A stretch of 64,000 nt of DNA from positions 1,662-65,661 of the forward strand of contig JAUYKW010000008.1 in NCBI GenBank assembly GCA_030698395.1, in the 5' to 3' direction. Under the pieces are notes generated by a model, which was given only the letters and a program-made list of their open reading frames with translations, was not told the DNA's origin and made no database searches. The stretch is from a bacterium. Lineage in GTDB: Bacteria; Patescibacteriota; Patescibacteriia; UBA9570. Each line of letters opens with the position of its first letter. Within the stretch, counting starts at the first letter, position 1. Positions 21,450 to 41,829 of the stretch are shown here, in pieces. Both the position numbers and the translations under genes were made by a program.

Positions 21450-21451
21450 CT

Positions 21452-22927: not shown

Positions 22928-22930
22928 GAT

Positions 22931-25907: not shown

Positions 25908-25916
25908 ATTATCAAT

Positions 25917-30621: not shown

Positions 30622-31939
30622 TCCAAGACACCTCAAGCGTGCTAATAGCACTAAGGCGGATCTTATTGAAATCCGAACTGATTTATATCCTGAATCAAAC
30701 ATAGCCGGTTTAATTGCAAAATGTGAGAAACCGGTTATTTTAACTATCAAATCTCCACGCACTGTTTGGCTGGATTATATTGATTCACCAAAAGTTAAAT
30801 ATGTTGATATTGATTATCGCTTAACTGGTTTGATTAAGGAATTTCATAAAGAGAGATCAAAACGTGTAAAGCTAATTGTATCTTTTCATGATTACAAGGA
30901 AACTCCATCTTGGGAAAGAATTCAAAAACGATTAGTACAATTACAAAAGTTAAATCCAGATGTTATCAAAGTCGCTACTATGATAGAGGAGTTTGATGAT
31001 ATTAGTGTGATTGCGCGATTACAAAAGAAACTAGGTAAGAAAGTGATTGCAGTTGGCATGGGAGATTTAGGTATGATGACCAGAATATATAACAGGGGAT
31101 TACTAACATACGCGCGGTTAAGTGCAACAGATAAGCAAACGTTGGAAAATGTTAGTGCAGCACCAGGACAACTTACCGTAGAACAATTAAAGGAGAGAAA
31201 GATTTTTGGGCTAGTCGGTGATGCTATTAAATATAGCTTAAGTCCTTTGATGTATAATAACTCTTTTCAGCATTATGATTTGCCACATATTTATCAGTTG
31301 TGGGATACGTCAAAGTTTTCTACATTTAAAGAGGTATTCAATTTTTTTAAGCTTCCTGGAGCATCAGTAACACAGCCTTTTAAAACTAACGCATTAAAGA
31401 TGGTTGACCACGCAGATGCAGATTCGGTAAAAATTGGTGCAGTAAATACAGTGGTCCGAGATTCTGATGATAAGTTGATTGGATATAATACAGATTGGGT
31501 AGGTGCAGAAAAAGCTTTGCATGGAGAATTAAAAGATAAAAAAATATTAATTCTTGGGGCTGGCGGTGCGTCAGCAGCTGTGGCATATGCAGCTGAAAAA
31601 AATGGTGCAACTAAGGTAACAGTATTATCTCGGAGGGATATGCCAACTGATGAAGATGATTTTGATGTTTTAGTTAATGCAACACCGGTTTACGATACAG
31701 TTTTAGTTCCAGAAGATTCTTTGTATAGTAAAGTTGTAATGGATTGTAATTATGGAACAATTACAGAGTTAGTACGTCATGCTGAGAAAAAAGCGCGAGT
31801 TGTCATGGATGGCTTGCCCATGTTATTGTATCAGGGTGAACCGCAATTTAAATATTGGACTGGAAAAAAAATGCCAGTAGAGAAAATTATGACAGCATTA
31901 AAAAAACATAAGAAAGCAAAAACTGGGTATGGCAGGTAA
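30599..31939 (+). CDS. Bifunctional 3-dehydroquinate dehydratase (type I) / shikimate dehydrogenase (AroD-AroE fusion).
   Basis: The N-terminus is DHQase-I-like. The C-terminus has the NADP Rossmann motif ILGAGGASAAVAYAA. Confidence 0.75.
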   Translation: MIAVTLANPRHLKRANSTKADLIEIRTDLYPESNIAGLIAKCEKPVILTIKSPRTVWLDYIDSPKVKYVDIDYRLTGLIKEFHKERSKRVKLIVSFHDYKETPSWERIQKRLVQLQKLNPDVIKVATMIEEFDDISVIARLQKKLGKKVIAVGMGDLGMMTRIYNRGLLTYARLSATDKQTLENVSAAPGQLTVEQLKERKIFGLVGDAIKYSLSPLMYNNSFQHYDLPHIYQLWDTSKFSTFKEVFNFFKLPGASVTQPFKTNALKMVDHADADSVKIGAVNTVVRDSDDKLIGYNTDWVGAEKALHGELKDKKILILGAGGASAAVAYAAEKNGATKVTVLSRRDMPTDEDDFDVLVNATPVYDTVLVPEDSLYSKVVMDCNYGTITELVRHAEKKARVVMDGLPMLLYQGEPQFKYWTGKKMPVEKIMTALKKHKKAKTGYGR

Positions 31940-32906
31940 TACATTTGGACAATTATTTCGAGTAACAACATGGGGAGAATCTCATGGTCATGCTATTGGT
32001 GGTGTAATTGATGGATGTCCAGCTGGAATCTCACTATCCATAGATGATATTCAGGTAGATTTGGATAGGCGCAGGCCAGGGCAAAGTATTATTACAACAC
32101 CGCGCAAAGAACTTGATAAGATAAAAATTTTATCTGGAGTTTTTGAAGGAAAAACTACTGGTACGCCAATTAGTTTAGCGATTAAGAATCAGGATCAGCG
32201 ATCTCAGGATTATGCCAAATTAAAAACGAGTTATCGAAAAGGACACGCAGATGAGGTGTATGATTTGAAGTATGGTTTTCGTGATCATCGTGGAGGTGGT
32301 AGAGCAAGTGCACGTGAGACTGCTGTGCGAGTAGCTGCAGGTGCAGTGGCAAAAAAAATATTACCGAAGAAAACCAAAGTAATTGCTTATACTAAACAGA
32401 TTCAAGATTTGGTAGTAGCAATACCAAAGTTTAATCAGATAGAGCAGAATCCAGTTAGAGCAGCAGATAATAAAGTAGCAGCTGAGATGGTGACATTAAT
32501 AAAGCAGGCTATGAGAGCTAAAGATTCCGTGGGTGGAATTATTGAGATAGTAATTAAAAATTGTCCGGTTGGTCTGGGTGAGCCTGTGTTTGATAAATTA
32601 AAAGCAGATTTAGCGAAAGGCTTATTAAGTATTCCAGCAGTTGTTGGATTTGAGTATGGTGCGGGTTTTGATGTAGTTGCAATGTATGGTTCAGAGCATA
32701 ATGATATTGAAGTTGGTATGTATGGTGGAATTTCTGATGGTAAAGACATAACAATGAGGGTAGCAGTTAAGCCTACTTCTTCAATAAAAATAAATGGTCG
32801 TCACGATCCATGTTTACTGCCTCGAGCAGTTCCAGTTTGTGAGGCAATGGTTAATTTAGTATTGATAGATTTTTATTTACGTAATAAGATTGTTCGTTCT
32901 AAATAA
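31929..32906 (+). CDS. aroC: Chorismate synthase.
   Basis: The motifs GESHG...RPGQS are present. Confidence 0.95.
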   Translation: MAGNTFGQLFRVTTWGESHGHAIGGVIDGCPAGISLSIDDIQVDLDRRRPGQSIITTPRKELDKIKILSGVFEGKTTGTPISLAIKNQDQRSQDYAKLKTSYRKGHADEVYDLKYGFRDHRGGGRASARETAVRVAAGAVAKKILPKKTKVIAYTKQIQDLVVAIPKFNQIEQNPVRAADNKVAAEMVTLIKQAMRAKDSVGGIIEIVIKNCPVGLGEPVFDKLKADLAKGLLSIPAVVGFEYGAGFDVVAMYGSEHNDIEVGMYGGISDGKDITMRVAVKPTSSIKINGRHDPCLLPRAVPVCEAMVNLVLIDFYLRNKIVRSK

Positions 32907-32931
32907 CTATTTTTAATGAACTTATATTTAT

Positions 32932-34266
32932 ATGGCAGATCCATTTAAGCCAGGGAGTGTAGCAAGAAAAATAGATTCTGATGTTCCACCAGCTGAAGAA
33001 GATGACTTAGGTATTTCTGTTGAGCATGCTGCTGTTTTAGATCGAGCAGCTCGTTATGGTGATCTTGAGAATGATGTTGAAGAGGGCTTGAGTGAAGCAG
33101 AGAAAAAAAATAAGGTGGCAGAGCTGGCAACTACTTTTGCTAGTGAGGATCATAGATTTGATAGAGAATTGATGAATGCGATAGATATAAAGCTTGGTGC
33201 TAAACATATGGCCATGGAGCAAAGTCTATCTGGTTTCGTTGAATATATAAATGAACCTGATTTGGAATCTTGTAATAAATTATTGGAGATTTTTGGTGAA
33301 ACTAGAATGGAATTTGAGGAACGATTTGGATATTTAGAGATGTTCAAGAGTAGAATGCAACGATCAGAGTTTCCAGAAGTTCGAGCGATGGCGTTAATAA
33401 TTGAAAAATCATACGCAGCGATGCTGCAGTACGCAGATTTATTATCGGCAGCTGAGAATTTAATGGGTAAGATAAAGAACCAGGTCGAGATGACTGGATT
33501 ACCAGAAGATATTGCATTACAGCAATTAAAAAAATTGAGTAATAAAATAGCTACATTGTATCGAAATGAGCTCCACAAAGTCGGTAGAAATGTTCGTCAC
33601 GCGTTAGCGTACGAAGGATATCGTGCATATATTGATAGTACTGATGATAAAGAAAATTTAAGAGAAGGCGATGTTGATGAGGATTATCTTTATGAATCTG
33701 GGATAAAGTTGGATGATGTGAAATTAAATGAAGGAGATATAAAAACACTCCAAGCATTGGATTTTAGAATGAAAGGTAGAGTTGGAGCTATTACGACTGA
33801 GTTGTTTAATTCCACCAGCGAAGAGAGATTAGAAAAAAATAGACAATCACTAGAAACGATACAGAAAGTTAAAATGTACTTTCAGGATCGTATGCAAATT
33901 ATATCTGATATATTACCAACACTAAACGAGGCTGATTCTATCTTTTTGCAAGAATTGCACATGCCAATGAGAGAGTTCATTATAGAAATGGAAAATCTAT
34001 TTAGCGTTTTGGATCGAGCTATTGTTGAATTGAATAAGTTAGTAGAAAGTAATTTATCAATTGAAGATAGATCTCTAATACAAATTAAATTGGATGAAAT
34101 GCAGAATGAAGTTGAGAGAATTTATCAACAAAAACTACAACCATTTGCAAATGTGGTCGCTACAAATTTAGCTTATATGAAGTACCGTAAAGGCGTGACT
34201 GAAACTCAAAGAGACGAGACGCCTGAATTGGTAGGTGAAGATTATCAATTAAATGTTGCTAAGTAA
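32932..34266 (+). CDS. Hypothetical acidic, probably helical protein (444 aa) embedded in the aromatic operon.
   Basis: The ORF is intact in the host low-GC composition. No motifs were recognised. Confidence 0.4.
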   Translation: MADPFKPGSVARKIDSDVPPAEEDDLGISVEHAAVLDRAARYGDLENDVEEGLSEAEKKNKVAELATTFASEDHRFDRELMNAIDIKLGAKHMAMEQSLSGFVEYINEPDLESCNKLLEIFGETRMEFEERFGYLEMFKSRMQRSEFPEVRAMALIIEKSYAAMLQYADLLSAAENLMGKIKNQVEMTGLPEDIALQQLKKLSNKIATLYRNELHKVGRNVRHALAYEGYRAYIDSTDDKENLREGDVDEDYLYESGIKLDDVKLNEGDIKTLQALDFRMKGRVGAITTELFNSTSEERLEKNRQSLETIQKVKMYFQDRMQIISDILPTLNEADSIFLQELHMPMREFIIEMENLFSVLDRAIVELNKLVESNLSIEDRSLIQIKLDEMQNEVERIYQQKLQPFANVVATNLAYMKYRKGVTETQRDETPELVGEDYQLNVAK

Positions 34267-34272
34267 ATTATA

Positions 34273-34893
34273 ATGATGAAAATAGCAGTATCCGGAGAAA
34301 AGGGTAGTTTTTCACATCAAGCAGCGCAGCTTTATGCTACAGCTCACAGTTTAAGTGATATTGATATTATCTTTTGTGGTGATAGCGCTGGTGCATTTAG
34401 TGCTTTATCTAATAAAGAAGCAGATAAAATTATTATTCCAATATATAATTCAACAGGAGGTTTTGTGAACATGACGTTGCAAGCTATGGGAGAGTTTTTG
34501 TTTCAGATTGAAGAAATGTTCGAAATGAATGTATTGCAATGTTTGCTGATAGATAAAAATATTAATGCTGATCAGATTGAGCAGATTGCATCTCATCCTC
34601 AGGCATTGAAACAATGCAAAGATTATTTACAAGAGAATTGGTCCGGTAGAGAGTTATTAGAATATCAAGATACAGCCAAGGCAGCCAAAGATTTAGCAAG
34701 CGGTAAATTAGATAACACCACAGCTGTGATAGCACCTGAATTAGCTGCAGAAATTTATGGGCTCAAGGTACTGGAAGAATCAATTCAAGATTTGAAATTT
34801 AATGCTACAACTTTTTTAGTAGTAGCTTCACCAGGTGGTGAAAAACAATCTGAAGAGATTAAACAGGAAAAATTAAAGGAGGAACTAGAATAG
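34273..34893 (+). CDS. pheA: Prephenate dehydratase-like (PDT domain only, no ACT domain).
   Basis: The N-terminus IAVSGEKGSFSHQAA resembles the PDT start (GxxGSFS/TE.A). It is in aromatic-pathway context. Confidence 0.65.
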   Translation: MMKIAVSGEKGSFSHQAAQLYATAHSLSDIDIIFCGDSAGAFSALSNKEADKIIIPIYNSTGGFVNMTLQAMGEFLFQIEEMFEMNVLQCLLIDKNINADQIEQIASHPQALKQCKDYLQENWSGRELLEYQDTAKAAKDLASGKLDNTTAVIAPELAAEIYGLKVLEESIQDLKFNATTFLVVASPGGEKQSEEIKQEKLKEELE

Positions 34894-34894
34894 T

Positions 34895-35584
34895 ATGAAC
34901 ATAGGAATTATAGGTGCTGGTAGATTTGGTAAGTTGCTCGCTGAACAATTGGAAAATGATAATAAAATTTTTCTTTTTGATAAGTTAGATGATAAAGATG
35001 AATTAGAGTCTTGTAATTTAGTTATTTATGCAGTACCAAATAGTTTATTGCAAGACGTAATAAATGAAACAAAAGAATTTATTCAATCAGATGCGATTGT
35101 AATGGATGTTGGTTCGGTTAAAATAAAACCATGTGCTGTGTTACAGGAAGCATTTGGAGAAAATATTTTAGGTACGCATCCGCTGTTTGGCCCAGATAGT
35201 GCTAGTGATTCTTGGGAGGGACATAAGATGGTTTTTTGCAAATTGAATATTCCTGATGATCAGTATAATAAAGTAAAAGAATTATTTATTAGCAGGGGAG
35301 TTAAAGCAATTGAATGTTCACCAGAGGAACATGATAAAATGATGGCTAAAACTCAAGCTTTAGTACACTACATTGGACGAGCACTTTCTGGAATTAAAGA
35401 GCAAGAAATATCTACGCCAGATTATGCAAATTTATTACGCATGATGGAGAAAGTTACTCATGATACTTGGGAATTATTTTATGACATGCAAAATTTGAAT
35501 CCGTATGCTAAATTAGAAAGAGAAAAGTTCAGTAAAAATATTGCTGAGTTAGAAGAAAAAATTAACCAAGAGTTAGATAAATAA
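34895..35584 (+). CDS. tyrA: Prephenate/arogenate dehydrogenase.
   Basis: The NAD(P) motif is IGIIGAGRFG. It is in aromatic-pathway context. Confidence 0.7.
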   Translation: MNIGIIGAGRFGKLLAEQLENDNKIFLFDKLDDKDELESCNLVIYAVPNSLLQDVINETKEFIQSDAIVMDVGSVKIKPCAVLQEAFGENILGTHPLFGPDSASDSWEGHKMVFCKLNIPDDQYNKVKELFISRGVKAIECSPEEHDKMMAKTQALVHYIGRALSGIKEQEISTPDYANLLRMMEKVTHDTWELFYDMQNLNPYAKLEREKFSKNIAELEEKINQELDK

Positions 35585-35587
35585 AGT

Positions 35588-35854
35588 ATGATCGAAAAAT
35601 CTTTAGAAGAATTAAGAGAGCAGATTGATAATATTGATGAAAAGATAATAAAATCAATTGGTGAAAGGTTTTTGGTTGTTGAGAAAATTGGAAAACTAAA
35701 GCAGGCGACTGGAATTCCAGTGCAAGATCCACACCGAGAAGCAAAATTATTATTGAAATTAAATACTTTAGCTCAGAAATATAACGTGTCCATTGAGGTA
35801 GTTACTCATATATATGACTATTTAATGCATCATTCCAGAGATAGCCAGCAGTAG
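35588..35854 (+). CDS. AroQ-class chorismate mutase.
   Basis: It is an 88-aa helical protein, with LEELREQIDNID...IGKLK typical of AroQ chorismate mutase. Confidence 0.8.
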   Translation: MIEKSLEELREQIDNIDEKIIKSIGERFLVVEKIGKLKQATGIPVQDPHREAKLLLKLNTLAQKYNVSIEVVTHIYDYLMHHSRDSQQ

Positions 35855-35871
35855 CATTATTAAAGAAAATT

Positions 35872-35900
35872 TTGACACTTTATAAAGTATAAATTATAAT
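35872..35900 (+). promoter_or_regulatory. Perfect consensus sigma70 promoter: TTGACA, 17 nt, TATAAT.
   Basis: The sequence is ttgaca-ctttataaagtataaat-tataat. Confidence 0.55.
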
Positions 35901-35906
35901 GTTCTT

Positions 35907-36095
35907 AAGTTTATGAATTTTATACACAGCAACAACTTATCTAAGCTTAAATGGACAGTGGTCTCTTCTATTAAGACACTGGTACGTATTTATTTACATA
36001 TAGCGCGGGCAAGGATAAGCAATGCAATTACATAAGTTGCATAATAAACAGAAAAGCTGCAACCTTAGCCCGCGAAAAAAACGCGGGATTTTTAT
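35907..36095 (+). ncRNA. Candidate ~190-nt small RNA or leader transcript, running from the consensus promoter to an intrinsic terminator. It contains a long imperfect stem (36003-36014 with 36063-36074) that competes with the terminator stem, and an optional 30-codon sORF.
   Basis: The promoter and terminator were read from the sequence, with no gene in between. It could not be matched to SRP RNA, 6S RNA, tmRNA or RNase P consensus motifs. Confidence 0.3.
36068..36095 (+). terminator. Intrinsic terminator: stem cccgcg / cgcggg, a 7-A loop, and a T-run.
   Basis: The sequence is gcccgcg-aaaaaaa-cgcggg-atttttat. Confidence 0.55.
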
Positions 36096-36230
36096 ATATT
36101 ATTTCTAGACTACTCGACTGGTATCCTCCGCACTAGTTGAGTCGCCTGGAAAGTAATTTCCAGATTATCGTTCTTTGTAAAGTATTTATCCCTATTTTTA
36201 GAAGTTATTCTGTTAATGGTGATAAAACAA

Positions 36231-36251
36231 TTTTAGAGGCAACGTGAAATT
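36231..36251 (+). repeat. Conserved leader box TTTTAGAGGCAACGTGAAATT, copy 1. Copy 2 is at 37283-37303, and a degenerate copy 3 is at about 37815-37835.
   Basis: Two copies are identical over 21 nt. Each lies upstream of a GC-rich ORF in the island. Confidence 0.6.
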
Positions 36252-36275
36252 AAATCTGGTTTAAAACGTAGCAGA

Positions 36276-36342
36276 GCGAGGAAAATGGTTTTTGTAGATA
36301 CGCGATTAATCGCGTATCTACGGATAAAAATATTTTCCTCGC
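36276..36342 (+). repeat. 67-nt inverted repeat. The outer arms are gcgaggaaaat / attttcctcgc. They enclose a perfect 28-bp palindrome, GTAGATACGCGATTAATCGCGTATCTAC (36294-36321).
   Basis: Read directly from the sequence. It lies about 80 nt upstream of the first GC-rich ORF. Confidence 0.7.
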
Positions 36343-36422
36343 TCCGGCTACCTAGTAGACCGGATTTCTCGGGTCATAGACCCATCCTCATACTCCTGCT
36401 GAAAAGCATGTGGAGATTCTCG

Positions 36423-37064
36423 ATGTCTGTTCGCCCTTCCAGTCCCTGCTCCAAGCTCGTCGTGCTCGCCGATGATGCTCCTGCCCTCTCCGTTCTCTGC
36501 GAGTTCATCGAGCCCAAGGCTATCGGTGGTCGCTGCATGTCCTTCGAAAGCACTCAGGTGCTGTTCTTCAACCGGAACAATCTGCAGGGCCTCGTGGCTC
36601 GGGTCGTGGTTCGGCGCACTGCTCGACCGCTCGGCGACAACATCGTATCTGTGCGCACGGTCGACGTGATCGTGGTGAACAGCGAAGATGATCTTCGACA
36701 CTACTTGCAGGACTCCCAGGTGTTGCATCTGCGCAGCACCGATCAGCGCCAGCCTGCCATGTACACCTTCACCCACAGCAAGATGTTCCCCAAGCCGCCC
36801 AGTGGTAGTGCTCACATCTGTCAGTTCGAGACTGGTCACCTGCAGAGTCACCTCCGGAACCTGGTGTCGGTTCTCTACTCGGGATGGTTCTCCCGCAAAC
36901 CGCAGGATGCCACGGTCTGCACGCCGAACAGCGCCATCGCCCAGATGTCTGGCTACATCGGACGTTCCACCCTGGCCTTCGAGGAAGGAGGTTATGGCGG
37001 AAGCGTGCAGTTCGGTCAGGACGACGCTTACGACGCGATCCGCGAGGACGGTTCTCGCTTGTAG
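36423..37064 (+). CDS. GC-rich (~60% GC) hypothetical protein of 213 aa, with strong G/C bias at codon third positions.
   Basis: The + frame has about 85% G/C at third positions with very few A, while all other frames look like wrong-frame GC-rich noise (R/P/S-rich). An SD (GGAGA) lies 8 nt upstream of the ATG at 36423. No known motifs were recognised. Confidence 0.5.
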   Translation: MSVRPSSPCSKLVVLADDAPALSVLCEFIEPKAIGGRCMSFESTQVLFFNRNNLQGLVARVVVRRTARPLGDNIVSVRTVDVIVVNSEDDLRHYLQDSQVLHLRSTDQRQPAMYTFTHSKMFPKPPSGSAHICQFETGHLQSHLRNLVSVLYSGWFSRKPQDATVCTPNSAIAQMSGYIGRSTLAFEEGGYGGSVQFGQDDAYDAIREDGSRL

Positions 37065-37080
37065 AAGAGCGAATAGAGGG

Positions 37081-37197
37081 CACGATTCGTCGTGGACAGT
37101 GATGGTAGACCGCATGACACCTCCTGTCGGGCTTCTTCTTTTCACGTTGCCCACCTCTCCTTTGTTTATCTATTAGCCCTTGCTAAATGGTAGAAAA
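37081..37197 (+). repeat. Conserved ~115-nt 3' trailer element, copy 1. H1 is CACGA-UUCG-UCGUG. H2 is gacag...ctgtc. H3 is gggc...gccc. Then follows ACCTCTCCTTTG and an AATGGTAGAAAA box.
   Basis: It is about 85% identical to 37633-37745, and a degenerate third copy is at about 38166-38240. Compensatory changes keep the stems intact: H2 is gacag/ctgtc in copy 1 and gacaa/ttgtc in copy 2; H3 is gggc/gccc in copies 1 and 2 and aggc/gcct in copy 3. Confidence 0.65.
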
Positions 37198-37320
37198 TAA
37201 GGTAAATAATGTAGTGGTAATAATTAGTCGTTCCTTTTATTTGTACTGGATGAATAACACTATTCTTTCAGTATTAACAGTATTTTAGAGGCAACGTGAA
37301 ATTCTAGCTGGTAATGTCCT

Positions 37321-37362
37321 AGGGTGAGGATATTGGTTTTATAACCAATGCCCCCACCCTGG
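37321..37362 (+). repeat. Conserved 5' leader stem-loop, copy 2: AGGGTG-AGGATATTGGTTTT-hairpin-ATGCCCCC-CACCCT. Copy 3 is at 37866-37919: TGTTGGGGT-AAGGATATGGGTTTTT-...-ATGCCCCC-ACCCCAACA.
   Basis: The closing stem differs in sequence but keeps its pairing in the two copies. A related AGGAAAATGGTTTTT motif sits in the 67-nt IR upstream of ORF1. Confidence 0.5.
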
Positions 37363-37620
37363 CTTACATTCGTAAAGCTGGAAATTGGGTTTCGACCCAC
37401 CCCTCAACCCCTCGAAAGGATCCTCCAGGTGGCTAAGAAAAAGCGGAAGAAGGAAGTTTGTAGAAGTGGTAGCAAGAAGATTCGTGTTGTGCAAATCAGC
37501 GATGCGGAACTTCGCAGGAGTACTATATCTGAGCTTTGTCGGAAGTATCATGGACGCATGGTCGTTGTTAACGGTCAGCGGTTCCTGATGACGAACGAAG
37601 AGCACAGCGAACACACCTGA
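37348..37620 (+). CDS. Small basic protein (63-90 aa depending on start), moderately GC-rich, a paralog of the 37933-38136 ORF.
   Basis: The ATG at 37348 lies inside the conserved noncoding ATGCCCCCACCC motif. A GTG at 37429 preceded by AAAGGA is a plausible alternative start. It shares ELCRKYHGRMVVVNG with EFCRRYNGQQVTIGS in the next ORF. Confidence 0.4.
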   Translation: MPPPWLTFVKLEIGFRPTPQPLERILQVAKKKRKKEVCRSGSKKIRVVQISDAELRRSTISELCRKYHGRMVVVNGQRFLMTNEEHSEHT

Positions 37621-37632
37621 GCAACCTGGGGT

Positions 37633-37745
37633 CACGATTCGTCGTGGACAATGATGATGGACTATTCGTCGTCACTTGTCGGGCTTCAACTCTTCACGTT
37701 GCCCACCTCTCCCTTGACTATTATCATTAAAAATGGTAGACAAAG
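37633..37745 (+). repeat. 3' trailer element, copy 2.
   Basis: See copy 1. The identical H1 hairpin cacgattcgtcgtg is present. Confidence 0.65.
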
Positions 37746-37932
37746 GATTGGTGAAAGTCATTCGTTCTTTATAACTAATGTGATGACTCACAATAATATT
37801 GTGATAGTTACTATTTTTTTCAGGCAATATGAATAGATCGTGGGCTAAACGTCCAAAAGGACTATGTTGGGGTAAGGATATGGGTTTTTCGATAAAAATC
37901 TATGCCCCCACCCCAACAAGTAAGGAGTGCTC

Positions 37933-38136
37933 ATGAATGCACCAGATGCTGAGCCCGGCGGTGTACGTGGCAGCGAGAGAGAGGTAGATCGAGACATGCA
38001 GAGATTTTCAGCGCGGGAGTTCTGCCGGCGTTACAATGGTCAGCAGGTCACTATCGGCTCCATGCGGATTCACATTCGCTACGAGCCCACTCCCTCGTTG
38101 CCGCGCGATCGGCCGGAGGCGCAGCTGTCCATCTAG
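37933..38136 (+). CDS. Small protein (67 aa) paralogous to the 37348-37620 ORF.
   Basis: A strong SD, AAGGAG, lies 5 nt upstream of the ATG at 37933. About 68% of third positions are G/C. The upstream ATGCCCCCACCCC motif is out of frame and terminated, so it is noncoding here. Confidence 0.45.
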   Translation: MNAPDAEPGGVRGSEREVDRDMQRFSAREFCRRYNGQQVTIGSMRIHIRYEPTPSLPRDRPEAQLSI

Positions 38137-38165
38137 GGCAGCGGAGGTTGTGGCTGGTGGTGCAG

Positions 38166-38240
38166 TCATAGACAAGATGGTAGGCTACGCCCCATCCTGT
38201 TAGGCTTACCGTTTTCATATTGCCTACCTCTCTTTTGATT
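38166..38240 (+). repeat. 3' trailer element, degenerate copy 3.
   Basis: It aligns to copies 1 and 2 over GATGGTAG...TCCTGT..GGCTT...TTTTCA..TTGCC.ACCTCTC.TTTG, with stem covariation. Confidence 0.5.
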
Positions 38241-38374
38241 AGCTAGTAAGCTAGTTGTTTAGAAGAGAGGTAAGTTTCAACAGGATCTTTCCCAAGTACG
38301 TTTAGTTGCACTAGCGACTTTGCGTCAACAGTTTTTTTGACAACGTCAGTTATGCACCTACCTAGCAGGAGGAG

Positions 38375-38467
38375 ATGGTAGGGAAGTTGCAGCAAGAGGT
38401 GCTGCAGGTGGGATTTTTCGTCTCCATCCCATTGGACAACCCGCTGACGTTGTCCCTTTCCTTATAA
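38375..38467 (+). CDS. Possible 30-codon sORF (MVGKLQQEVLQVGFFVSIPLDNPLTLSLSL) bracketed by an 11-nt inverted repeat (gacaacgtcag at 38338-38348, ctgacgttgtc at 38444-38454).
   Basis: An AGGAGG lies immediately upstream of the ATG. It is short and unsupported otherwise. Confidence 0.15.
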   Translation: MVGKLQQEVLQVGFFVSIPLDNPLTLSLSL

Positions 38468-38573
38468 ATATCATTTGTTGGTACTTATAAGGATTTGGAT
38501 AATTGTGAATAAGTTAAATAATATAAGTTGACTTATTAAAAAAATAATATATTCTTTATTTTAAGAAGTATTT

Positions 38574-38663
38574 ATGAATATTCTTTTTGCCCAAATAAAT
38601 CTTATTAGCATTATTAGCCTGCTTATTAGCCATGGTTCTTTGCGTTATGAACAAACTTAAGTA
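38574..38663 (+). CDS. Possible 29-aa hydrophobic peptide (MNILFAQINLISIISLLISHGSCVMNKLK), followed by a terminator.
   Basis: It is a short ORF in host-like AT-rich composition. An intrinsic terminator lies 25 nt downstream. No clear SD was seen. Confidence 0.2.
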
Positions 38664-38684
38664 AAAAAGTAATTCAAACGTAAA

Positions 38685-38713
38685 GAACCCTGTCAAATAT
38701 CGCAGGGTTTTTT
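38685..38713 (+). terminator. Intrinsic terminator: aaccctg-tcaaatatcg-cagggtt-ttttttt.
   Basis: Read from the sequence. Confidence 0.55.
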
Positions 38714-38811
38714 TATTGCCTCATTAATTTCTCCTTTAACAGGGGATGAGAACCGTACGGCGGTAGGAGGAGTCTATCGTTCTTCCTGTACGCTTCGGCA
38801 ACGAGGATACA

Positions 38812-39036
38812 ATGTACCGGCGCGGTACCTGGGAGTTTTATCAGTTCAACGCCGTGTTTCACGCTGAGCTGGTCAGGTGTTCGAATGGCATCGTGGCGCT
38901 GATGTGGCGCAACGAGGTGCACAAGACCGGTGCCAACGAAGTGACCATTGCGTACCGACGGTTCGAGCGTCAGCAGTGGAGCTTCTGGGCTCATTCGGCC
39001 ACAGGAGGCACCTGTGACACGTCCGCGGTCTACTAG
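38812..39036 (+). CDS. GC-rich hypothetical protein (74 aa) with high G/C at third positions.
   Basis: About 78% of third positions are G/C. A GGAGG lies about 45 nt upstream and the proximal SD is weak (GAGGAT). It is flanked by an inverted repeat: gcgagacggcgg (39083-39094) and ccgtcgtctcg (39137-39147). Confidence 0.35.
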   Translation: MYRRGTWEFYQFNAVFHAELVRCSNGIVALMWRNEVHKTGANEVTIAYRRFERQQWSFWAHSATGGTCDTSAVY

Positions 39037-39231
39037 CAGCTCCGAGAGCGTTGCTACGCCTGACGCAAATACGGAATCTCACGCGAGACGGCGGCATGGG
39101 TTGACTAGATGTATTTATGTACGTCTTGCTATCACCAGCCGTCGTCTCGACCGTTCATCTTATTTATTGTTTAATTTGCTCTAAGAAATAAAATCATTTA
39201 TACTCATTAAAGTTAAGTTAAAGGATATATC

Positions 39232-41829
39232 ATGCAAAATTCTTTCGAACAATTACAAAATTACCTTGCTAAAAATCCAGATTTAGTTGCAGAAACTACG
39301 CGGCGGAAGCGAACATTAGTTTACATCGCTGGAATGTCTTTGGATCAAGAGGAGCTTGCTAAGGTACGAGGTATTGAGTTTTACGAAGAACGTTTATTAT
39401 ACGTTGTTGGCTTATTACGAGATCCAAACACTAAGATTGTTTTTGTATCCTCAAAGCAAATTGATCCAGTTATTATTGATTATTATTTTGATTTATTTAG
39501 TAGATCTCAGAAAGAGCGGATTAGCATGGAGAAAAGATGGCATCATTTTTATATTGGTAATAGTAGAATTCATAAAACTTTAACTCAAAAAGTTTTAACA
39601 TCAAAACGGTTGGTTATTCAAATTAATCAGCAAATTGATAATACTAAGCAAGCTGTATTACGGTGTTTTAATTCGTCTGAAGATGAAAAAGCCCTAGCAG
39701 TTAAATTAAATATTCCTTTATATGCTCCAGATCCTAAATTTTTACATTATGGATCGAAATCCGGAGCTCGTCAGGTGTTCAAGCAAGCAGGTTTAAAACC
39801 ACCATATGGAGTAGAAAATATTACCTCAATGTTGGAGTTGATTAACTCAATTAGAAAAATTAAACAGCATGAGAAGGGGGTTGAACAAGTTGTTGTAAAA
39901 TTTGATTACAGCTTTTCTGGAGTAGGTAATGCTAATTTGACGGTAAGCAAATTTCCACGTACAAATGTAGCTGCCGAGAAGTACATTAAAACTCATCTTA
40001 AACCAAATGAATCAGATGTTACTGCGATTCAGTATTTAAAAAAGTTATTTGATATTGGTGGAATTGTTGAAACGTGGTTACAAGGAATACGAATCTTTTC
40101 ACCAAGTGTTCAGTTAGCAATAGATCCAGATAAGAGTGTCCGGATTATTTCTAGTCATGAGCAGTTGCTTGATGAAGAAACAAAACAAGTTTTTTTAGGA
40201 GCTAGATTTCCGGCTCGTAAATCGATGAGACAACCTTTGTTACTACAGGCAGAAAAGGTGGGAAAAGAATTAGCTGATGCAGGAGTGATTGGATTTTTTG
40301 GAATAGATTTTATTGCTGTGAAAGAGAAAACAAAATATGTTGCGTATCCTATTGAAATAAATTTGCGCAAAGGTGGAGCAACACATCCTTTTCAGATAGC
40401 TAGAATGTTAACGCAAGGTAGCTATAAAAAAGATGGAGCTATGCGTGATGATTCACGACAGAGGATTGCATATTATTCTTTTGATAACATTAAATCTACA
40501 GATTACGTTGGTTTGAAGCCTGAGGAAATTATTAAAATAGTTAAGCAAGCAGGGCTAGAATTTGATCATGAAAATAATGGTGGAGTTTCTTTACACTTGT
40601 TAGGAAGCTTAAAAAAATATGGAAAATTTGGTACAGTTTGTATTGCACGTTCACCACGAGCAGCTGAGCAATTATTTATCATTTTAACTAAGGTTGTTGA
40701 TGCGTATGTGGCACGAAAATCAGAAATTGAAATTGTTACACCTCAAGTAGTTTCTGTAAATCAAAAGAGATTGGTTGATACTTTTATAAAATTAGTTAAG
40801 ATTGCTAGTCCTTCAGGAGAAGAAGCAAAAATTAGATTATTGCTTAGAGAAGAATTAGTGAGATTGGGCGTAAAAACAAGAGTTGATAAGTCAGGAAATT
40901 TAATCGGTAAAAAACCAGGTGTAGGTACCGTACCGTTTTTGTTATCAGCACATATGGATACTGTAAAACCATGTGAAAATGTTAATCCCGTAATTAGGGG
41001 AAATACTATCATGACAGATGGCACTACTATATTGGGCGCAGACAACAAGGCTGGAATTGTATATATTTTGGAGCTACTGCGATTATTGCATGAATTTGAT
41101 ATTAAACATCGGCCATTAGAAATAGTAATGTCTGTCTGTGAAGAACAGTTTTCGGGTGGAGCAGACGAACTTGATGTTTCTAAATTAAAATCTCCAGTTG
41201 GTCTGGTTGTGGATGGTGCTGATTTAGGGGAGGTTGATTATATTTCACCTTATATAGCAACCATTAATGTATCTGTTATTGGTAAAGCTGCTCATTCTGG
41301 AGTAGAGCCAGAAAATGGTGTAAGTGCGATTCAGATAGCATCTAACGCTATTGCAAATATGCCATTAGGAAGACTTGATCATGATACGACTGCAAATATT
41401 GGCTTAATTACTGGTGGGACTAATAGAAATGCAATTCCAGATCGAGTAGAATTAGAAGGAGAAGTACGAAGTTTAACAAAACGATATTTAGAAGAACAGT
41501 TAGAGCGAATGCATAAGGCTTTAGAAGATGCTGCTGAGTTATATGGCGGGTTACTTGATATTTCTAGTAAGATAGCTGTTCAAGGTTACAAATTTTCCAA
41601 AAATGATCCTGATTTAAAGAAGATTATGCAGATTATGAAAGAAGTAGACATTAAACCAGATTTAAGGAAAGCTGGGGGTGGTTCAGATGCGAATGTATTT
41701 GTTGCTAGAGGCATAAAAACTATTGATGTTGGGACAGGTGTACAGAAGCCACATACTGTTGAAGAGAGTATAAAAATAGACGACATGACGAAGATGGTAG
41801 AATTTTTATTAAAGATTGTCCAAGTTTAG
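39232..41829 (+). CDS. Two-domain protein: an N-terminal ATP-grasp-type ligase domain fused to a C-terminal M20-family metallopeptidase domain (peptidase T/ArgE/DapE-like).
   Basis: The ATP-grasp signatures are VVVKFDYSFSGVGN (compare VxxKP..GSxGxGV) and GIDFIAV...YPIEINLRKGG (compare EVNxxPG). The M20 signatures are SAHMDTV, GADNKAG and IGKAAHSG. Confidence 0.55.
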   Translation: MQNSFEQLQNYLAKNPDLVAETTRRKRTLVYIAGMSLDQEELAKVRGIEFYEERLLYVVGLLRDPNTKIVFVSSKQIDPVIIDYYFDLFSRSQKERISMEKRWHHFYIGNSRIHKTLTQKVLTSKRLVIQINQQIDNTKQAVLRCFNSSEDEKALAVKLNIPLYAPDPKFLHYGSKSGARQVFKQAGLKPPYGVENITSMLELINSIRKIKQHEKGVEQVVVKFDYSFSGVGNANLTVSKFPRTNVAAEKYIKTHLKPNESDVTAIQYLKKLFDIGGIVETWLQGIRIFSPSVQLAIDPDKSVRIISSHEQLLDEETKQVFLGARFPARKSMRQPLLLQAEKVGKELADAGVIGFFGIDFIAVKEKTKYVAYPIEINLRKGGATHPFQIARMLTQGSYKKDGAMRDDSRQRIAYYSFDNIKSTDYVGLKPEEIIKIVKQAGLEFDHENNGGVSLHLLGSLKKYGKFGTVCIARSPRAAEQLFIILTKVVDAYVARKSEIEIVTPQVVSVNQKRLVDTFIKLVKIASPSGEEAKIRLLLREELVRLGVKTRVDKSGNLIGKKPGVGTVPFLLSAHMDTVKPCENVNPVIRGNTIMTDGTTILGADNKAGIVYILELLRLLHEFDIKHRPLEIVMSVCEEQFSGGADELDVSKLKSPVGLVVDGADLGEVDYISPYIATINVSVIGKAAHSGVEPENGVSAIQIASNAIANMPLGRLDHDTTANIGLITGGTNRNAIPDRVELEGEVRSLTKRYLEEQLERMHKALEDAAELYGGLLDISSKIAVQGYKFSKNDPDLKKIMQIMKEVDIKPDLRKAGGGSDANVFVARGIKTIDVGTGVQKPHTVEESIKIDDMTKMVEFLLKIVQV

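What the first reader, a model, noticed from the sequence alone, without database searches (positions are those of the whole stretch)
35855..39231. Compositionally anomalous island: tandem modules of GC-rich ORFs separated by repeated, structured AT-rich spacers
A 3.4 kb island lies between the aromatic supraoperon and the ATP-grasp/M20 gene. Genes on either side run at about 35% GC, and no such arrangement occurs elsewhere in the window.

GC-rich ORFs:
- 36423-37064, about 60% GC.
- 37348/37429-37620, about 50% GC.
- 37933-38136, about 60% GC.
- 38812-39036, about 60% GC.

Structure between the ORFs:
- Sharp GC/AT transitions occur at ORF boundaries.
- The AT-rich spacers are homologous to each other along their whole length (5' leader box, stem-loop, 3' trailer).
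- This points to tandem duplication of a [leader - ORF - trailer] unit, with the ORFs diverging faster or being replaced.

Candidate explanations: (a) cassette-like capture of foreign genes without integron att sites; (b) a regulator-controlled accessory module from a high-GC donor; (c) a family of structured mRNAs or sRNAs.
Basis: seen in the sequence. Interest (0 to 1): 0.85.

Follow-up and report, generated by a model that had tools for sequence, protein, structure and literature searches.

The report
End-paired GC-rich gene modules in CPR bacterium
In an AT-rich candidate-phyla-radiation bacterium, a conserved locus holds tandem modules in which fast-evolving GC-rich small genes are each enclosed by a covarying stem between their upstream and downstream flanks, an arrangement that fits no described RNA or mobile-element family.

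Summary
Window 36.3-39.1 kb is the only GC-rich stretch (55-61% GC against about 35%) in 64 kb of a Patescibacteria chromosome, and an independent assembly is identical.

In units U1-U4 the "leader box" is complementary to the "trailer" of the same unit (11-12 bp). A second hairpin starts at the first base after this stem. Across nine units from six genomes the first 11 pairs are always paired, and nine pairs show compensatory changes.

The ORFs are real genes: GC3 exceeds GC2, they have Shine-Dalgarno sites, and they have weak paralogues or remote homologues. They evolve far faster than their neighbours and have almost no relatives among billions of proteins.

Relatives (50-66% identical flanking protein) carry equivalent GC-rich islands at the same place. 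One unrelated contig carries the same scaffold elsewhere. Cargo can also be non-coding (U4; a tRNA-like RNA in relatives).

My best reading is self-contained, end-sealed structured transcripts acting after transcription on stability or translation. An integron-like DNA cassette logic is not excluded. Simple recent transfer from a high-GC donor, giant non-coding RNAs and assembly artefact are not supported. The function of the proteins is unknown.

The parts
35872..35900 (+). Consensus sigma-70-type promoter (TTGACA, 17 nt, TATAAT) at the upstream edge of the island
   Evidence: 12 of 12 consensus matches. TTGACA-type boxes sit at the same place after the chorismate mutase gene in L047 and L048.
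35913..36095 (+). Short ORF (40 aa, 35913-36035) followed by an intrinsic terminator (36069-36087 plus T run). An alternative stem, 36003-36014 with 36062-36075, shares CCCGCG with the terminator, giving an attenuator-like layout
   Evidence: ORF and terminator. The alternative stem was read from the sequence. A small ORF or RNA plus terminator occupies the same position in L047-L051 and L054. The attenuator function is inferred.
36238..36249 (+). U1 closing stem, 5' strand (GGCAACGTGAAA)
   Evidence: 12/12 complementary to 37140-37151 (0 of 300 shuffles). Retained in the MFE fold of the whole unit. Covariation shown.
36253..36367 (+). U1 leader hairpin, with the palindrome GTAGATACGCG ATTAAT CGCGTATCTAC at its tip (36294-36321)
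   Evidence: Inverted repeats I6 and I11 and fold. The same palindrome type occurs three times in L048.
36423..37064 (+). ORF1, 213 aa, 60% GC, preceded by GGAG 7 nt upstream
   Evidence: GC1/2/3 = 0.61/0.44/0.75. Four remote homologues, P0124-P0127, at E = 2.5e-11 to 1e-6, share the motif KLVVLADD..EF..P..GGRC. No Pfam, PHROGs, PADLOC or PDB assignment.
37065..37151 (+). U1 trailer. The closing-stem 3' strand is 37140-37151 (TTTCACGTTGCC)
   Evidence: Homologous to 37619-37721 (76% over 103 nt). Alignments.
37152..37218 (+). U1 terminal hairpin. Its 5' arm is the CU-rich tail CACCTCTCC, and it starts at the first base after the closing stem
   Evidence: Fold (weakest of the set, z = -1.1). 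The equivalent hairpins in other units give z = -3 to -9.
37290..37300 (+). U2 closing stem, 5' strand (GGCAACGTGAA)
   Evidence: Pairs with 37693-37703. Retained in the MFE fold.
37318..37362 (+). U2 leader hairpin (GGGTGAGG...CCCCCACCC)
   Evidence: Fold. Homologous to the U3 hairpin (D13).
37429..37620 (+). ORF2, 63 aa from a GTG start (in frame with ATG 37348, which lies inside the leader hairpin)
   Evidence: Paralogue of ORF3.
37621..37703 (+). U2 trailer. The closing-stem 3' strand is 37693-37703
37704..37753 (+). U2 terminal hairpin
   Evidence: Fold z = -3.2.
37822..37833 (+). U3 closing stem, 5' strand (AGGCAATATGAA). It carries CG-to-TA changes that are compensated in the trailer
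   Evidence: 12/12 complementary to 38214-38225 (I18). Covariation.
37865..37918 (+). U3 leader hairpin
   Evidence: I2; fold.
37933..38136 (+). ORF3, 67 aa, 60% GC, with AAGGAG 5 nt upstream
   Evidence: The AlphaFold model reached pLDDT 69 and found no structural match.
38137..38225 (+). U3 trailer. The closing-stem 3' strand is 38214-38225 (TTCATATTGCCT)
38226..38272 (+). U3 terminal hairpin (ACCTCTCTTTTGA...TTAGAAGAGAGGT)
   Evidence: Fold -29.5 kcal/mol, z = -5.7; I7.
38339..38454 (+). U4, an ORF-less mini unit. Closing stem GACAACGTCAGT / GCTGACGTTGTC around a 92-nt structured interior, followed by the CU-rich tail CCTTTCC
   Evidence: Compensatory changes relative to U1-U3.
38574..38714 (+). 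Small hydrophobic ORF (28 aa, MNILFAQINLISIISLLISHGSLRYEQT, 38574-38660) plus intrinsic terminator (stem 38688-38707, T run to 38714)
   Evidence: Read. Similar peptides sit at the same position in L047 (MNYSGKQLILIVLNLVINITLGSLWFKKEM) and L049 (MPQFKNTILIIINILVVITSGSLHMKR).
38812..39036 (+). ORF5, 74 aa, 59% GC, GAGGA 4 nt upstream. It lacks the GGYAACG scaffold
   Evidence: GC1/2/3 = 0.52/0.48/0.77. End pairing is no better than chance. A GC-rich, non-homologous ORF occupies this position in every relative.
39085..39148 (+). Long hairpin after ORF5 (GAGACGGCGGC ... GCCGTCGTCTC)
   Evidence: Read. Analogous long hairpins or terminators follow the last GC-rich ORF in L047, L048, L050 and L051.
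39176..39204 (+). Promoter-like site of the ATP-grasp/M20 gene itself (TTGCTC, 17 nt, TATACT). The island is therefore not simply that gene's 5' UTR
   Evidence: Read. Equivalent TTGxxx-N17-TATAxT sites are seen in L047, L048 and L049. Inferred, and not reported by the scan.

Best explanation
**What it is.** The island is a vertically maintained, hypervariable accessory locus of one Patescibacteria lineage. It holds four tandem copies of a portable expression scaffold (U1-U4) and one unscaffolded GC-rich gene (ORF5).

**The scaffold.**
- It is a self-contained unit, read here as a transcript whose two flanks pair.
- An 11-14 bp closing helix has a conserved 7-bp core, GGYAACG / CGTTRCC, and a freely covarying extension. 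It joins the 5' flank to the 3' flank.
- A second hairpin begins at the very next nucleotide. Its 5' arm is an anti-Shine-Dalgarno-like CU-rich tail. It can stack on the closing helix.
- A further hairpin lies between the closing helix and the ribosome-binding site.

**The cargo.** Usually the cargo is a fast-evolving, GC-rich, lineage-restricted small protein gene. It can also be non-coding: U4 in the window, and a tRNA-like RNA in L047 and L049.

**Proposed mechanism (inferred, not shown).** The sealed ends protect the RNA from end-dependent RNases. Together with the CU-rich tail, they hold the message in a stable state that is poorly translated or conditionally translated. This is analogous to the 5'-3' long-distance interaction of type I toxin mRNAs.

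**How the array arose.** It grows by tandem duplication. Scaffold and cargo are reshuffled by recombination.

**Shown:** the anatomy, the covariation, the coding signal, the conservation of the locus, and the fast evolution of the ORFs.

**Inferred:** that the helix forms in RNA, where transcripts start and end, and the effect on stability or translation.

**Unknown:** what the proteins do, and why they are GC-rich.
For: **End pairing.**
- The leader and trailer of the same unit are complementary.
- For ORF-carrying scaffolded units (W U1-U3, L048 U1, L050 U2, L085 U2), 0 of 300 shuffles reach the observed run.

**Covariation** (9 units, 6 genomes).
- Pairs 1-11 are paired in all nine units.
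- Nine of 14 pairs show changes on both sides.
- 88% of cells are paired, against 33-54% when the partner column is slid.
- 0 of 500 shuffles reach the observed covariation score.
- Pairing is within a unit, not between neighbours. Trailer 2 against leader 3 and trailer 3 against leader 4 are mismatched, while leader 3 with trailer 3 and leader 4 with trailer 4 are perfect.

**Folding.**
- Whole units fold with the closing helix in the MFE structure and are far more stable than shuffles: z = -6.9, -3.7 and -6.3.
- A terminal hairpin starts at the first base after the helix in each of the seven units from three genomes that were folded. Sequences differ but the position is kept.
- One G-U pair in L054 lies on the ORF-sense strand.

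**The unit is a gene, not a TIR-bounded element.**
- All cargo ORFs have the same orientation relative to the scaffold and have Shine-Dalgarno sites.
- Conserved parts lie outside the inverted repeat: the terminal hairpin and an upstream GTTCTTT box. This argues for a transcription unit.

**The ORFs are coding.**
- GC3 of about 0.65-0.9 against GC2 of about 0.4-0.5 in most island ORFs.
- Paralogue or orthologue pairs exist, and ORF1 belongs to a small family.
- ORF interiors are not more structured than synonymous-codon shuffles.

**Fast evolution.** Island ORFs are 36% and 25% identical where flanking proteins are 75-85% and 68% identical.

**Conserved locus.**

**Same scaffold elsewhere.** The same scaffold, with an ORF1 homologue, lies next to a different gene on contig L085.

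**Precedent.** End-paired, anti-SD-locked mRNAs are described in PMC6733600.
Against: **No direct RNA evidence.**
- No expression or RNA-end data were available. Promoters in front of the individual units are weak and inconsistent between genomes (and reading of the sequences).
- Comparing fold energies of the two strands gives mixed results: the sense strand is favoured in the window, L047, L054 and L085, and the antisense strand in L048 and L050.

**Hints of recognition or shuffling at the DNA level.**
- The strict sequence conservation of the 7-bp core is not needed for a helix. It suggests recognition by a protein, which could act on DNA.
- Unrelated ORFs sit in near-identical scaffolds (U1 and U2), with homology resuming exactly at the stop codon. 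That looks like cassette exchange.

**GC-richness is not explained by the scaffold.**
- ORF5, the last ORF of most relatives, and a second GC-rich locus in L047, L048 and L050 are GC-rich without the scaffold.

**Possible ascertainment bias.** The units in the covariation table were partly chosen because they pair.
Confidence: 0.45

Rival explanations
1. The units are DNA-level gene cassettes. The split inverted repeat (trailer core of a unit plus its own leader core) re-forms a folded recombination site when the unit is excised as a circle. This follows the logic of integron cassettes, but with a different site and an unknown recombinase. The array is a cassette store that is shuffled and reloaded.
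For: - Homologous roughly 270-nt structured repeats separate mostly orphan ORFs of atypical composition, as in chromosomal integron arrays.
- Each leader pairs with its own downstream trailer rather than the upstream one. This is the relation expected if the leader core travels with the cassette.
- Unrelated ORFs sit in near-identical scaffolds, with homology resuming at the stop codon.
- The 7-bp core is conserved in sequence.
- The number of units varies from 1 to 4 between relatives.
- An ORF1 homologue with the same scaffold lies in a different genomic context.
Against: - No tyrosine or serine recombinase, transposase or reverse transcriptase was found among the window ORFs scanned. The unscanned 22931-31939 corresponds to trp/aro biosynthesis genes in relatives. 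None appears in the annotated flanks of eight related loci.
- The site does not match attC. The order is GTT...AAC rather than AAC...GTT, and the core is GGYAACG rather than RYYYAAC/GTTRRRY (read).
- Adjacent trailer/leader pairs, which would have to fold in the array, are poorly complementary for U2/U3 and U3/U4.
- The locus and some ORFs are inherited vertically.
- Exact-pattern scans of 596 Gb of genomes, JGI metagenomes and viral contigs found no further copies, so the element is not widely mobile.
Confidence: 0.2
2. This is recent horizontal transfer of foreign genes from one or more high-GC donors, for example a host bacterium or its phages. The scaffold is incidental local sequence.
For: - The composition is typical of high-GC organisms at all three codon positions, and in amino-acid usage too: GC1/2/3 of 0.58/0.45/0.71 against 0.49/0.34/0.22 in the flanking gene, with A rarest at third positions.
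- One ORF1 homologue (P0126) lies on a contig of about 56% GC with no scaffold.
- Patescibacteria are commonly episymbionts of other microbes (general knowledge).
Against: - Relatives as distant as 50-66% identity in the flanking protein have GC-rich ORFs at the same locus.
- Homologous island ORFs are GC-rich in two different AT-rich genomes at only about 34% identity. Conserved GC-rich genes exist at a second locus in L047, L048 and L050. The composition is therefore maintained over long times, not freshly imported.
- No homologues were found in named high-GC taxa. There is no match in phage or plasmid collections or in phage and defence profile libraries.
- There are no mobility genes and no flanking tRNA.
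Confidence: 0.1
3. The GC-rich segments are large structured non-coding RNAs. The ORFs are by-products of GC-rich sequence, which has few stop codons.
For: - GC-rich intergenic segments in AT-rich genomes are a classic signature of structured RNA.
- Both strands carry long ORFs.
- Units fold far better than shuffles.
- Some units (U4, L047 U1, L049) have no ORF and do carry conserved structure.
Against: - Codon-position periodicity is strong, with GC3 up to 0.91.
- Shine-Dalgarno sites sit at the right spacing.
- Conservation is seen at the protein level. One island ORF in L050 passes the Pfam threshold for class IV aminotransferases.
- In 13 of 15 cases ORF interiors are no more structured than synonymous-codon shuffles.
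- No Rfam family matches at its threshold.
Confidence: 0.04
4. This is an assembly chimera, or contamination of the bin by a high-GC organism.
For: The composition jumps sharply in a metagenome-assembled genome.
Against: - An independent assembly is identical over 7.7 kb spanning both junctions.
- AT-rich conserved spacers interleave with the GC-rich ORFs.
- The same architecture is found in eight further assemblies from other samples.
Confidence: 0.01

Closest known systems
Type I toxin mRNAs locked by a 5'-3' long-distance interaction (hok/Sok, aapA/IsoA)
   Same: A discrete message whose 5' and 3' ends pair. A pyrimidine-rich anti-SD-like element lies near the 3' end. Hairpins lie upstream of the ribosome-binding site. 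The pairing is conserved by covariation. Copies are often tandem or multiple (PMC6733600).
   Different: The cargo here is 63-213 aa and hydrophilic, and differs from unit to unit, rather than being a small hydrophobic toxin of under 60 aa. No antisense antitoxin is evident. Some units carry no ORF. The helix has a conserved sequence core. The cargo is strikingly GC-rich. Toxicity has not been tested.
Integron gene-cassette arrays and integrase-less attC clusters (CALINs)
   Same: An array of mostly orphan ORFs of atypical composition, all in one orientation, separated by homologous structured repeats containing inverted repeats. The 5' boundary sequence of a unit matches its own downstream repeat. 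The number of units varies between relatives.
   Different: There is no integrase. The core motif and its order differ from attC (GGYAACG with CGTTRCC, GTT before AAC). The repeat is 12 bp and spans the ORF. Adjacent sites are poorly complementary. The locus is vertically conserved in a core chromosomal region.
Bacterial Y RNA (YrlA) and viral tRNA-like elements
   Same: In the ORF-less units of L047 and L049, a stem formed by the two ends encloses a module with weak similarity to tRNA-like structures: Tymo_tRNA-like at 26.9 and 15.8 bits, YrlA at 14.8 bits.
   Different: All scores are below the Rfam thresholds (40 and 69 bits). ARAGORN finds nothing. The window's own units show no such similarity. 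No Ro/Rsr gene was seen.
MITEs and foldback elements with terminal inverted repeats (for example Correia elements, Rickettsia palindromic elements)
   Same: Short inverted repeats bracket a segment of variable length. A short 'empty' form exists (U4, 116 nt) beside longer forms.
   Different: There are no target-site duplications. Conserved parts extend outside the repeats. The repeats covary unit by unit. Copies are clustered at one locus rather than dispersed in the 64 kb. The cargo is a complete gene with a ribosome-binding site.
Compositionally atypical genomic islands acquired by horizontal transfer
   Same: Sharp compositional contrast with the surrounding genome, and orphan genes.
   Different: The island is present at the same locus across deep relatives. 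It has no mobility genes, no tRNA or att flank, and no identifiable donor homologues.

Membership tests
Integron cassette array / attC | Adjacent intI tyrosine recombinase (or, for CALINs, bona fide attC sites) | tested here: not met
   Pfam scans of window ORFs and the annotated flanks of related loci show pilus, ligase, aromatic biosynthesis, ATP-grasp and ribosomal genes only. ORFs at 22931-31939 were not scanned directly; they correspond to trp/aro genes in relatives.
Integron cassette array / attC | attC with R'' RYYYAAC ... R' GTTRRRY in that order downstream of each ORF | tested here: not met
   The repeat after each ORF reads CGTTRCC ... GGYAACG (GTT before AAC), and the purine/pyrimidine pattern differs. 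No attC covariance model was available to run.
Integron cassette array / attC | Cassettes excise as circles and reinsert | not testable with these tools
   This needs read-level population data or an experiment.
Type I toxin-antitoxin | Toxin mRNA folded by 5'-3' end pairing | tested here: met
   The closing helix has covariation and is retained in MFE folds. It has not been shown in RNA.
Type I toxin-antitoxin | Small (under about 60 aa) hydrophobic membrane toxin | tested here: not met
   ORF1-3 are 213, 63 and 67 aa, and are charged or hydrophilic. Only the separate 28-aa ORF at 38574-38660 looks like such a peptide, and it lies outside the scaffolded units.
Type I toxin-antitoxin | Cis- or trans-encoded antisense RNA antitoxin | tested here: inconclusive
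   The promoter scan found only weak consensus matches on the minus strand, no more than in shuffles. No expression data were available.
MITE / TIR transposon | Inverted repeats at the very termini, flanked by a target-site duplication | tested here: not met
   No duplication flanks any unit. A conserved hairpin and an upstream box lie outside the repeats.
MITE / TIR transposon | Many dispersed copies in the genome | tested here: inconclusive
   None lies outside the island in the 64-kb window or in 10-22 kb of related loci. One contig shows another context. The whole genome was not available.
Retron (msr-msd) | Adjacent retron-type reverse transcriptase | tested here: not met
   No RT was found in the window ORFs scanned or in related loci.
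Retron (msr-msd) | a1/a2 inverted repeats bracketing a short ncRNA of about 150-250 nt | tested here: not met
   Inverted repeats are present, but they bracket 116-914 nt that include translated genes.
Any Rfam family (including tmRNA, Y RNA, tRNA-like elements, large ncRNAs) | Score at or above the family's gathering threshold | tested here: not met
   There are 0 hits at gathering threshold in the window and in L047-L049. Only sub-threshold hits were seen. ARAGORN found none.
Horizontally acquired genomic island | Atypical composition | tested here: met
Horizontally acquired genomic island | Absent from the same locus in relatives, or homologues present in a donor lineage | tested here: not met
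   Relatives carry GC-rich islands at the same locus. The only homologues found lie on a few metagenome contigs, three of them too short to place, with none in a named high-GC taxon.
Horizontally acquired genomic island | Mobility genes, or a flanking tRNA or att site | tested here: not met

The most novel reading that the evidence does not exclude
The scaffold is a portable cassette platform specific to a Patescibacteria lineage. A split inverted repeat with a conserved 7-bp core marks units that can be excised, swapped and reloaded with either protein genes or small RNAs. This would be an integrase-independent counterpart of integron cassettes. It would give these tiny-genome symbionts a store of rapidly evolving GC-rich accessory genes, possibly tuned to or derived from GC-rich partner organisms.
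Probability: 0.15. Interest if true: 0.9.

Novelty: new variant of a known kind. Interest (0 to 1): 0.7.

Why it matters
Patescibacteria have tiny genomes and poorly understood accessory biology. Here a fixed locus in the core chromosome, between amino-acid biosynthesis genes and ribosomal operons, is given over to small genes with four unusual properties:
- they evolve several times faster than their neighbours;
- they keep a GC content 15-25 points above the genome over long evolutionary times;
- they are nearly without relatives in billions of sequences;
- they are wrapped in a conserved RNA-like scaffold supported by covariation.

If the scaffold seals the transcripts, it would extend the end-pairing control known from small toxin mRNAs to a modular platform for arbitrary cargo. 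If it marks DNA cassettes, it would be a new cassette system.

Either way it defines a searchable motif: GGYAACG ... CGTTRCC followed by a CU-rich hairpin. It also raises a concrete, testable question: why do particular genes in an AT-rich symbiont stay GC-rich?

Tried and rejected
**RNA family searches.**
- Rfam at gathering and permissive thresholds on the window and relatives gave nothing at threshold.
- ARAGORN found no tRNA or tmRNA.

**Exact-pattern scans for trailer and leader cores.** These covered GTDB species genomes, JGI metagenomes and viral contigs.
- All hits were single, had no partner strand and lay in unrelated contexts, so they are chance matches.
- The leader pattern mostly caught ordinary RBS-plus-start-codon contexts.

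**Other homology searches.**
- A protein-based scan of JGI metagenomes with the ATP-grasp/M20 protein found no relatives.
- ORF1 against 5.8 billion proteins found only itself.
- Pfam, PHROGs, PADLOC and PDB sequence searches gave no assignment for the window ORFs.
- blastn of the island against phage and plasmid collections gave no match.

**Hypotheses tested and dropped.**
- RNA structure inside the ORFs drives their GC content: rejected by synonymous-codon shuffles.
- Island GC3 tracks host GC3: no correlation was seen (r of about 0), though the L048 value in that calculation was out of frame.
- Every GC-rich ORF is end-paired: false for ORF5 and for most last-position ORFs in relatives.
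- The leader box is an ECF-type -35 element or the start of a leader peptide: spacing and reading frames are inconsistent between units (reading).
- DGR-like adenine mutagenesis: the third-position base spectrum does not fit.

**Tests that did not work.**
- An unconstrained RNAduplex test of UTR pairing was uninformative and timed out.
- Strand choice by fold energy was mixed.
- RNAalifold on the trailers found no robust internal consensus beyond a 4-bp stem.

Full report
**Setting**

The window comes from a Patescibacteria (candidate phyla radiation) metagenome-assembled genome. The flanking 865-aa protein is recorded at NCBI as "MAG: M20/M25/M40 family metallo-hydrolase [bacterium]". Its fused ATP-grasp(PGM1-like)/M20 relatives are named Patescibacteria where a name exists.

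Every long ORF except one inside the island (36348-37154, taken here as spurious) lies on the + strand. The neighbourhood is core chromosome:
- type IV pilus genes, DNA ligase, gatA and ndk;
- an aromatic amino-acid supraoperon ending in prephenate dehydratase, prephenate dehydrogenase and chorismate mutase;
- then the island;
- then the ATP-grasp/M20 gene, a dehydrogenase and an aminotransferase;
- then the str, S10 and spc ribosomal operons and secY.

No recombinase, transposase or reverse transcriptase was found among the ORFs scanned.

Yes.
- GC reaches 0.52-0.62 in 200-nt windows at 36300-37100, 37900-38200 and 38700-39100. No 400-nt window elsewhere in the 64 kb exceeds 0.42.
- The leader box and trailer core occur only in the island, with 0 expected by chance.
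- The regions after ORF1-3 are homologous.
- An independent Logan assembly of another read set is identical over 7.7 kb across both junctions. A chimera is therefore excluded for practical purposes.

The leader box is the reverse complement of the trailer core of the same unit.

| Unit | 5' strand | 3' strand |
|---|---|---|
| U1 | GGCAACGTGAAA (36238) | TTTCACGTTGCC (37140) |
| U2 | same core (37290) | same core (37693) |
| U3 | AGGCAATATGAA (37822) | TTCATATTGCCT (38214) |

The pairing is within units. The trailer of U2 does not match the leader of U3, and the trailer of U3 does not match the leader of U4. The differences between units are compensated inside each unit.

I then counted pairs over nine units from six genomes: four from the window, plus L047, L048, L050, L054 and L085.
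- The first 11 pairs are paired in every unit.
- Nine of 14 pairs have changes on both sides.
- 88% of cells are paired, against 33-54% when the partner column is slid by 1-3 positions.
- None of 500 shuffles reaches the observed covariation score.
- One caveat applies: several units were found because they pair, so there is some ascertainment bias. Even so, they are defined positionally, immediately around each GC-rich ORF, and by other conserved flanking features.

A simple test of the longest complementary run between 5' and 3' flanks gives 0 of 300 shuffles for the six ORF-carrying units whose stem it recovers: W U1-U3, L048 U1, L050 U2 and L085 U2.

The helix has a conserved 7-bp core, GGYAACG/CGTTRCC, and a freely varying extension.

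**Further anatomy of the scaffold**

- A hairpin starts at the first nucleotide after the closing helix. Its 5' arm is the CU-rich tail: CACCTCTCC, TACCTCTC, or CGCCTTTC in L085. The hairpin sequences differ between units and genomes, but the position is constant. Folds are strongly non-random, with z from -3 to -9 in six of seven cases. This hairpin can stack on the closing helix, so the base of the unit is one long helix.
- Between the 5' strand and the ribosome-binding site lies another long hairpin.
- Whole units fold with the closing helix in the minimum-energy structure, at z = -6.9 (U1), -3.7 (U2) and -6.3 (U3).
- A GTTCTTT-like box recurs upstream of the 5' strand in several genomes.
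- Because conserved elements lie outside the inverted repeat, and no target-site duplications exist, the unit is not a transposon bounded by terminal inverted repeats.

**Are the ORFs genes?**

Yes.
- GC3 greatly exceeds GC2. ORF1 has 0.75 against 0.44, ORF5 has 0.77 against 0.48, and ORFs in relatives reach 0.91 against 0.45.
- Each has a Shine-Dalgarno motif 4-9 nt upstream.
- ORF2 and ORF3 are paralogues. So are two ORFs in L048. L050/L054 and L051/L087 share orthologues.
- A full HMMER scan of 1.84 billion representatives found four remote homologues of ORF1 with a shared N-terminal motif.
- One island ORF in L050 passes the Pfam threshold for class IV aminotransferases.
- Synonymous-codon shuffling shows that ORF interiors are generally no more structured than their codon composition predicts. 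The giant non-coding RNA reading therefore fails, and the excess structure of the units lies in the flanks.
- Function remains unknown. There is no Pfam, PHROGs, PADLOC or PDB hit, and two AlphaFold models of moderate confidence gave no meaningful structural neighbour.

**Comparative evidence**

Genomes whose ATP-grasp/M20 protein is 50-66% identical all have a GC-rich island immediately upstream of that gene.
- The island is raised by about 7-25 GC points over each genome's background.
- One clade (L051, L087) lacks the aromatic operon between ndk and the island. The island therefore goes with the ATP-grasp/M20 side.
- That gene has its own promoter-like site, so the island is not simply its leader (reading).
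- The number of scaffolded units varies from 1 to 4.
- The ORFs are mostly unrelated between genomes.
- Where orthologues can be recognised, they are 36% and 25% identical, while flanking proteins are 75-85% and 68% identical.
- Cargo can be non-coding. L047 and L049 carry, inside a closing helix or upstream of a conserved trailer (L049), a conserved structured RNA with sub-threshold similarity to tRNA-like elements.
- Contig L085, an AT-rich fragment next to an mnmA-like gene, carries an ORF1 homologue followed by the same trailer, and then a second unit with exactly the window's GGCAACGTGAAA/TTTCACGTTGCC helix. The scaffold is therefore not tied to one locus.
- Another ORF1 homologue sits on a contig of about 56% GC without the scaffold.

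**Origin of the GC-richness**

The composition looks like that of a high-GC organism at all codon positions. This is what prompted the transfer idea. Four points argue that it is a maintained property rather than a recent import:
- the locus is GC-rich in all relatives;
- homologous ORFs are GC-rich in different AT-rich genomes at about 34% identity;
- L047, L048 and L050 carry a second GC-rich locus with conserved orthologues at 51-54% identity;
- no homologues turned up in named high-GC taxa, phages or plasmids.

GC-richness is also not tied to the scaffold. ORF5 and most last-position ORFs lack significant end pairing. I could not determine what maintains the composition.

**Mechanism**

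The best-supported reading is a family of self-contained structured transcripts whose two ends are sealed by the closing helix and the stacked terminal hairpin. The precedent is the 5'-3' long-distance interaction, with a 3' anti-SD element, that keeps type I toxin mRNAs stable and translationally inert until they are processed (PMC6733600).

Four observations fit this reading:
- the CU-rich tails are complementary to the units' GGAG-type ribosome-binding sites;
- all cargo has the same orientation;
- a G-U pair lies on the sense strand in L054;
- conserved elements extend beyond the repeat.

Against it:
- there are no RNA data;
- unit promoters are unclear;
- strand-energy comparisons are mixed;
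- the sequence-conserved core, and the presence of unrelated ORFs in near-identical scaffolds with homology resuming exactly at the stop codon, point to recognition or shuffling at the DNA level.

The main rival is therefore an integron-like cassette logic with a new site type. It shares the rule that each unit's 5' boundary pairs with its own 3' repeat. It fails on integrase, on attC motif and order, and on the complementarity of adjacent sites.

**Verdict**

This is a real, conserved and, to my searches, undescribed architecture. It is most conservatively filed as a new variant of end-paired structured mRNAs. The cassette-platform reading is not excluded and would be categorically new.

- Confidence in the anatomical description is high.
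- Confidence in the RNA-level mechanism is moderate, at about 0.45.
- The biological role of the proteins and the cause of their GC content remain open.

Noticed in passing
window 35872-36095: A perfect consensus promoter (12/12) drives a 40-aa ORF that ends inside a stem (36003-14 with 36062-75). That stem competes with the terminator at 36069-87. The layout looks like a leader-peptide attenuator feeding into unit U1. A comparable small ORF or RNA plus terminator follows the chorismate mutase gene (or ndk) in all relatives.
   Followed up: partly
window 38574-38714: A 28-aa hydrophobic, Ile/Leu-rich peptide gene with a strong terminator. It is conserved in L047 and L049, with a shared ...GSL(W/H/R)... 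motif near the C-terminus. It could be a type I toxin-like peptide or a branched-chain amino-acid leader peptide.
   Followed up: partly
window 36294-36321; L048 about 7833, 8449-8476 and about 9100: A 10-bp-arm palindrome, GTAGAKACGC-N8-GCGTMTCTAC, sits at the tips of hairpins in the window's U1 leader and three times in the L048 island. It occurs nowhere else in the window or in the other loci fetched. It may be a protein-binding site or a small palindromic insert.
   Followed up: partly
L047 8693-8972; L049 about 365-700: ORF-less units carry a conserved structured RNA (GGGAAnCCTAAGCCA ... GGTGACGGGTT ... CTCCCCTCG). Both hit the tymovirus tRNA-like element model below threshold (26.9 and 15.8 bits). 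L047 also weakly hits YrlA.
   Followed up: partly
L047 14250-17100; L048 14200-17050; L050 12950-14850: Relatives have a second GC-rich locus downstream of the ATP-grasp operon. It holds conserved orthologues: a 482-654 aa protein whose C-terminal part in L048 and L050 resembles a class III nucleotidyl cyclase motif, and in L047 and L048 a 137-142 aa protein on the opposite strand. Both have GC3 of 0.73-0.80. This locus is absent from the window.
   Followed up: partly
L050 6401-7492: A 363-aa GC-rich ORF (GC3 0.84) directly after the fused prephenate dehydrogenase/chorismate mutase gene passes the Pfam threshold for class IV aminotransferases (PabC/IlvE-like). Only two relatives (74% and 87% identity) were found in 5.8 billion proteins. 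The gene caller had instead called a spurious 539-aa ORF on the opposite strand.
   Followed up: yes
window 39232-41829: An ATP-grasp (PGM1-like peptide ligase) fused to an M20 peptidase. Among the search hits, the fused form appears only in a small set of contigs named Patescibacteria or left unnamed. It is followed by a dehydrogenase and aminotransferases, which suggests a ligate-then-cleave amino-acid or peptide pathway.
   Followed up: no
window 20433-35854 versus L051 and L087: The whole aromatic amino-acid supraoperon lies between ndk and the island in the window's clade. It is absent from that position in the L051/L087 clade, so it was inserted or lost as a block.
   Followed up: no
window 32932-34266 and 50637-51878: Two sizeable ORFs (444 and 413 aa) have no Pfam match. 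One lies inside the aromatic operon and the other between EF-G and EF-Tu.
   Followed up: no
L054 3022-4155: An AAA ATPase gene (ATPase_2/DUF4143) is inserted between the island and the ATP-grasp/M20 gene in this relative only.
   Followed up: no
window 1-64000: All 55 ORFs of 150 aa or more, apart from the spurious antisense one inside the island, are on the + strand, with positive GC skew throughout. This is an extreme gene-strand bias over 64 kb.
   Followed up: no
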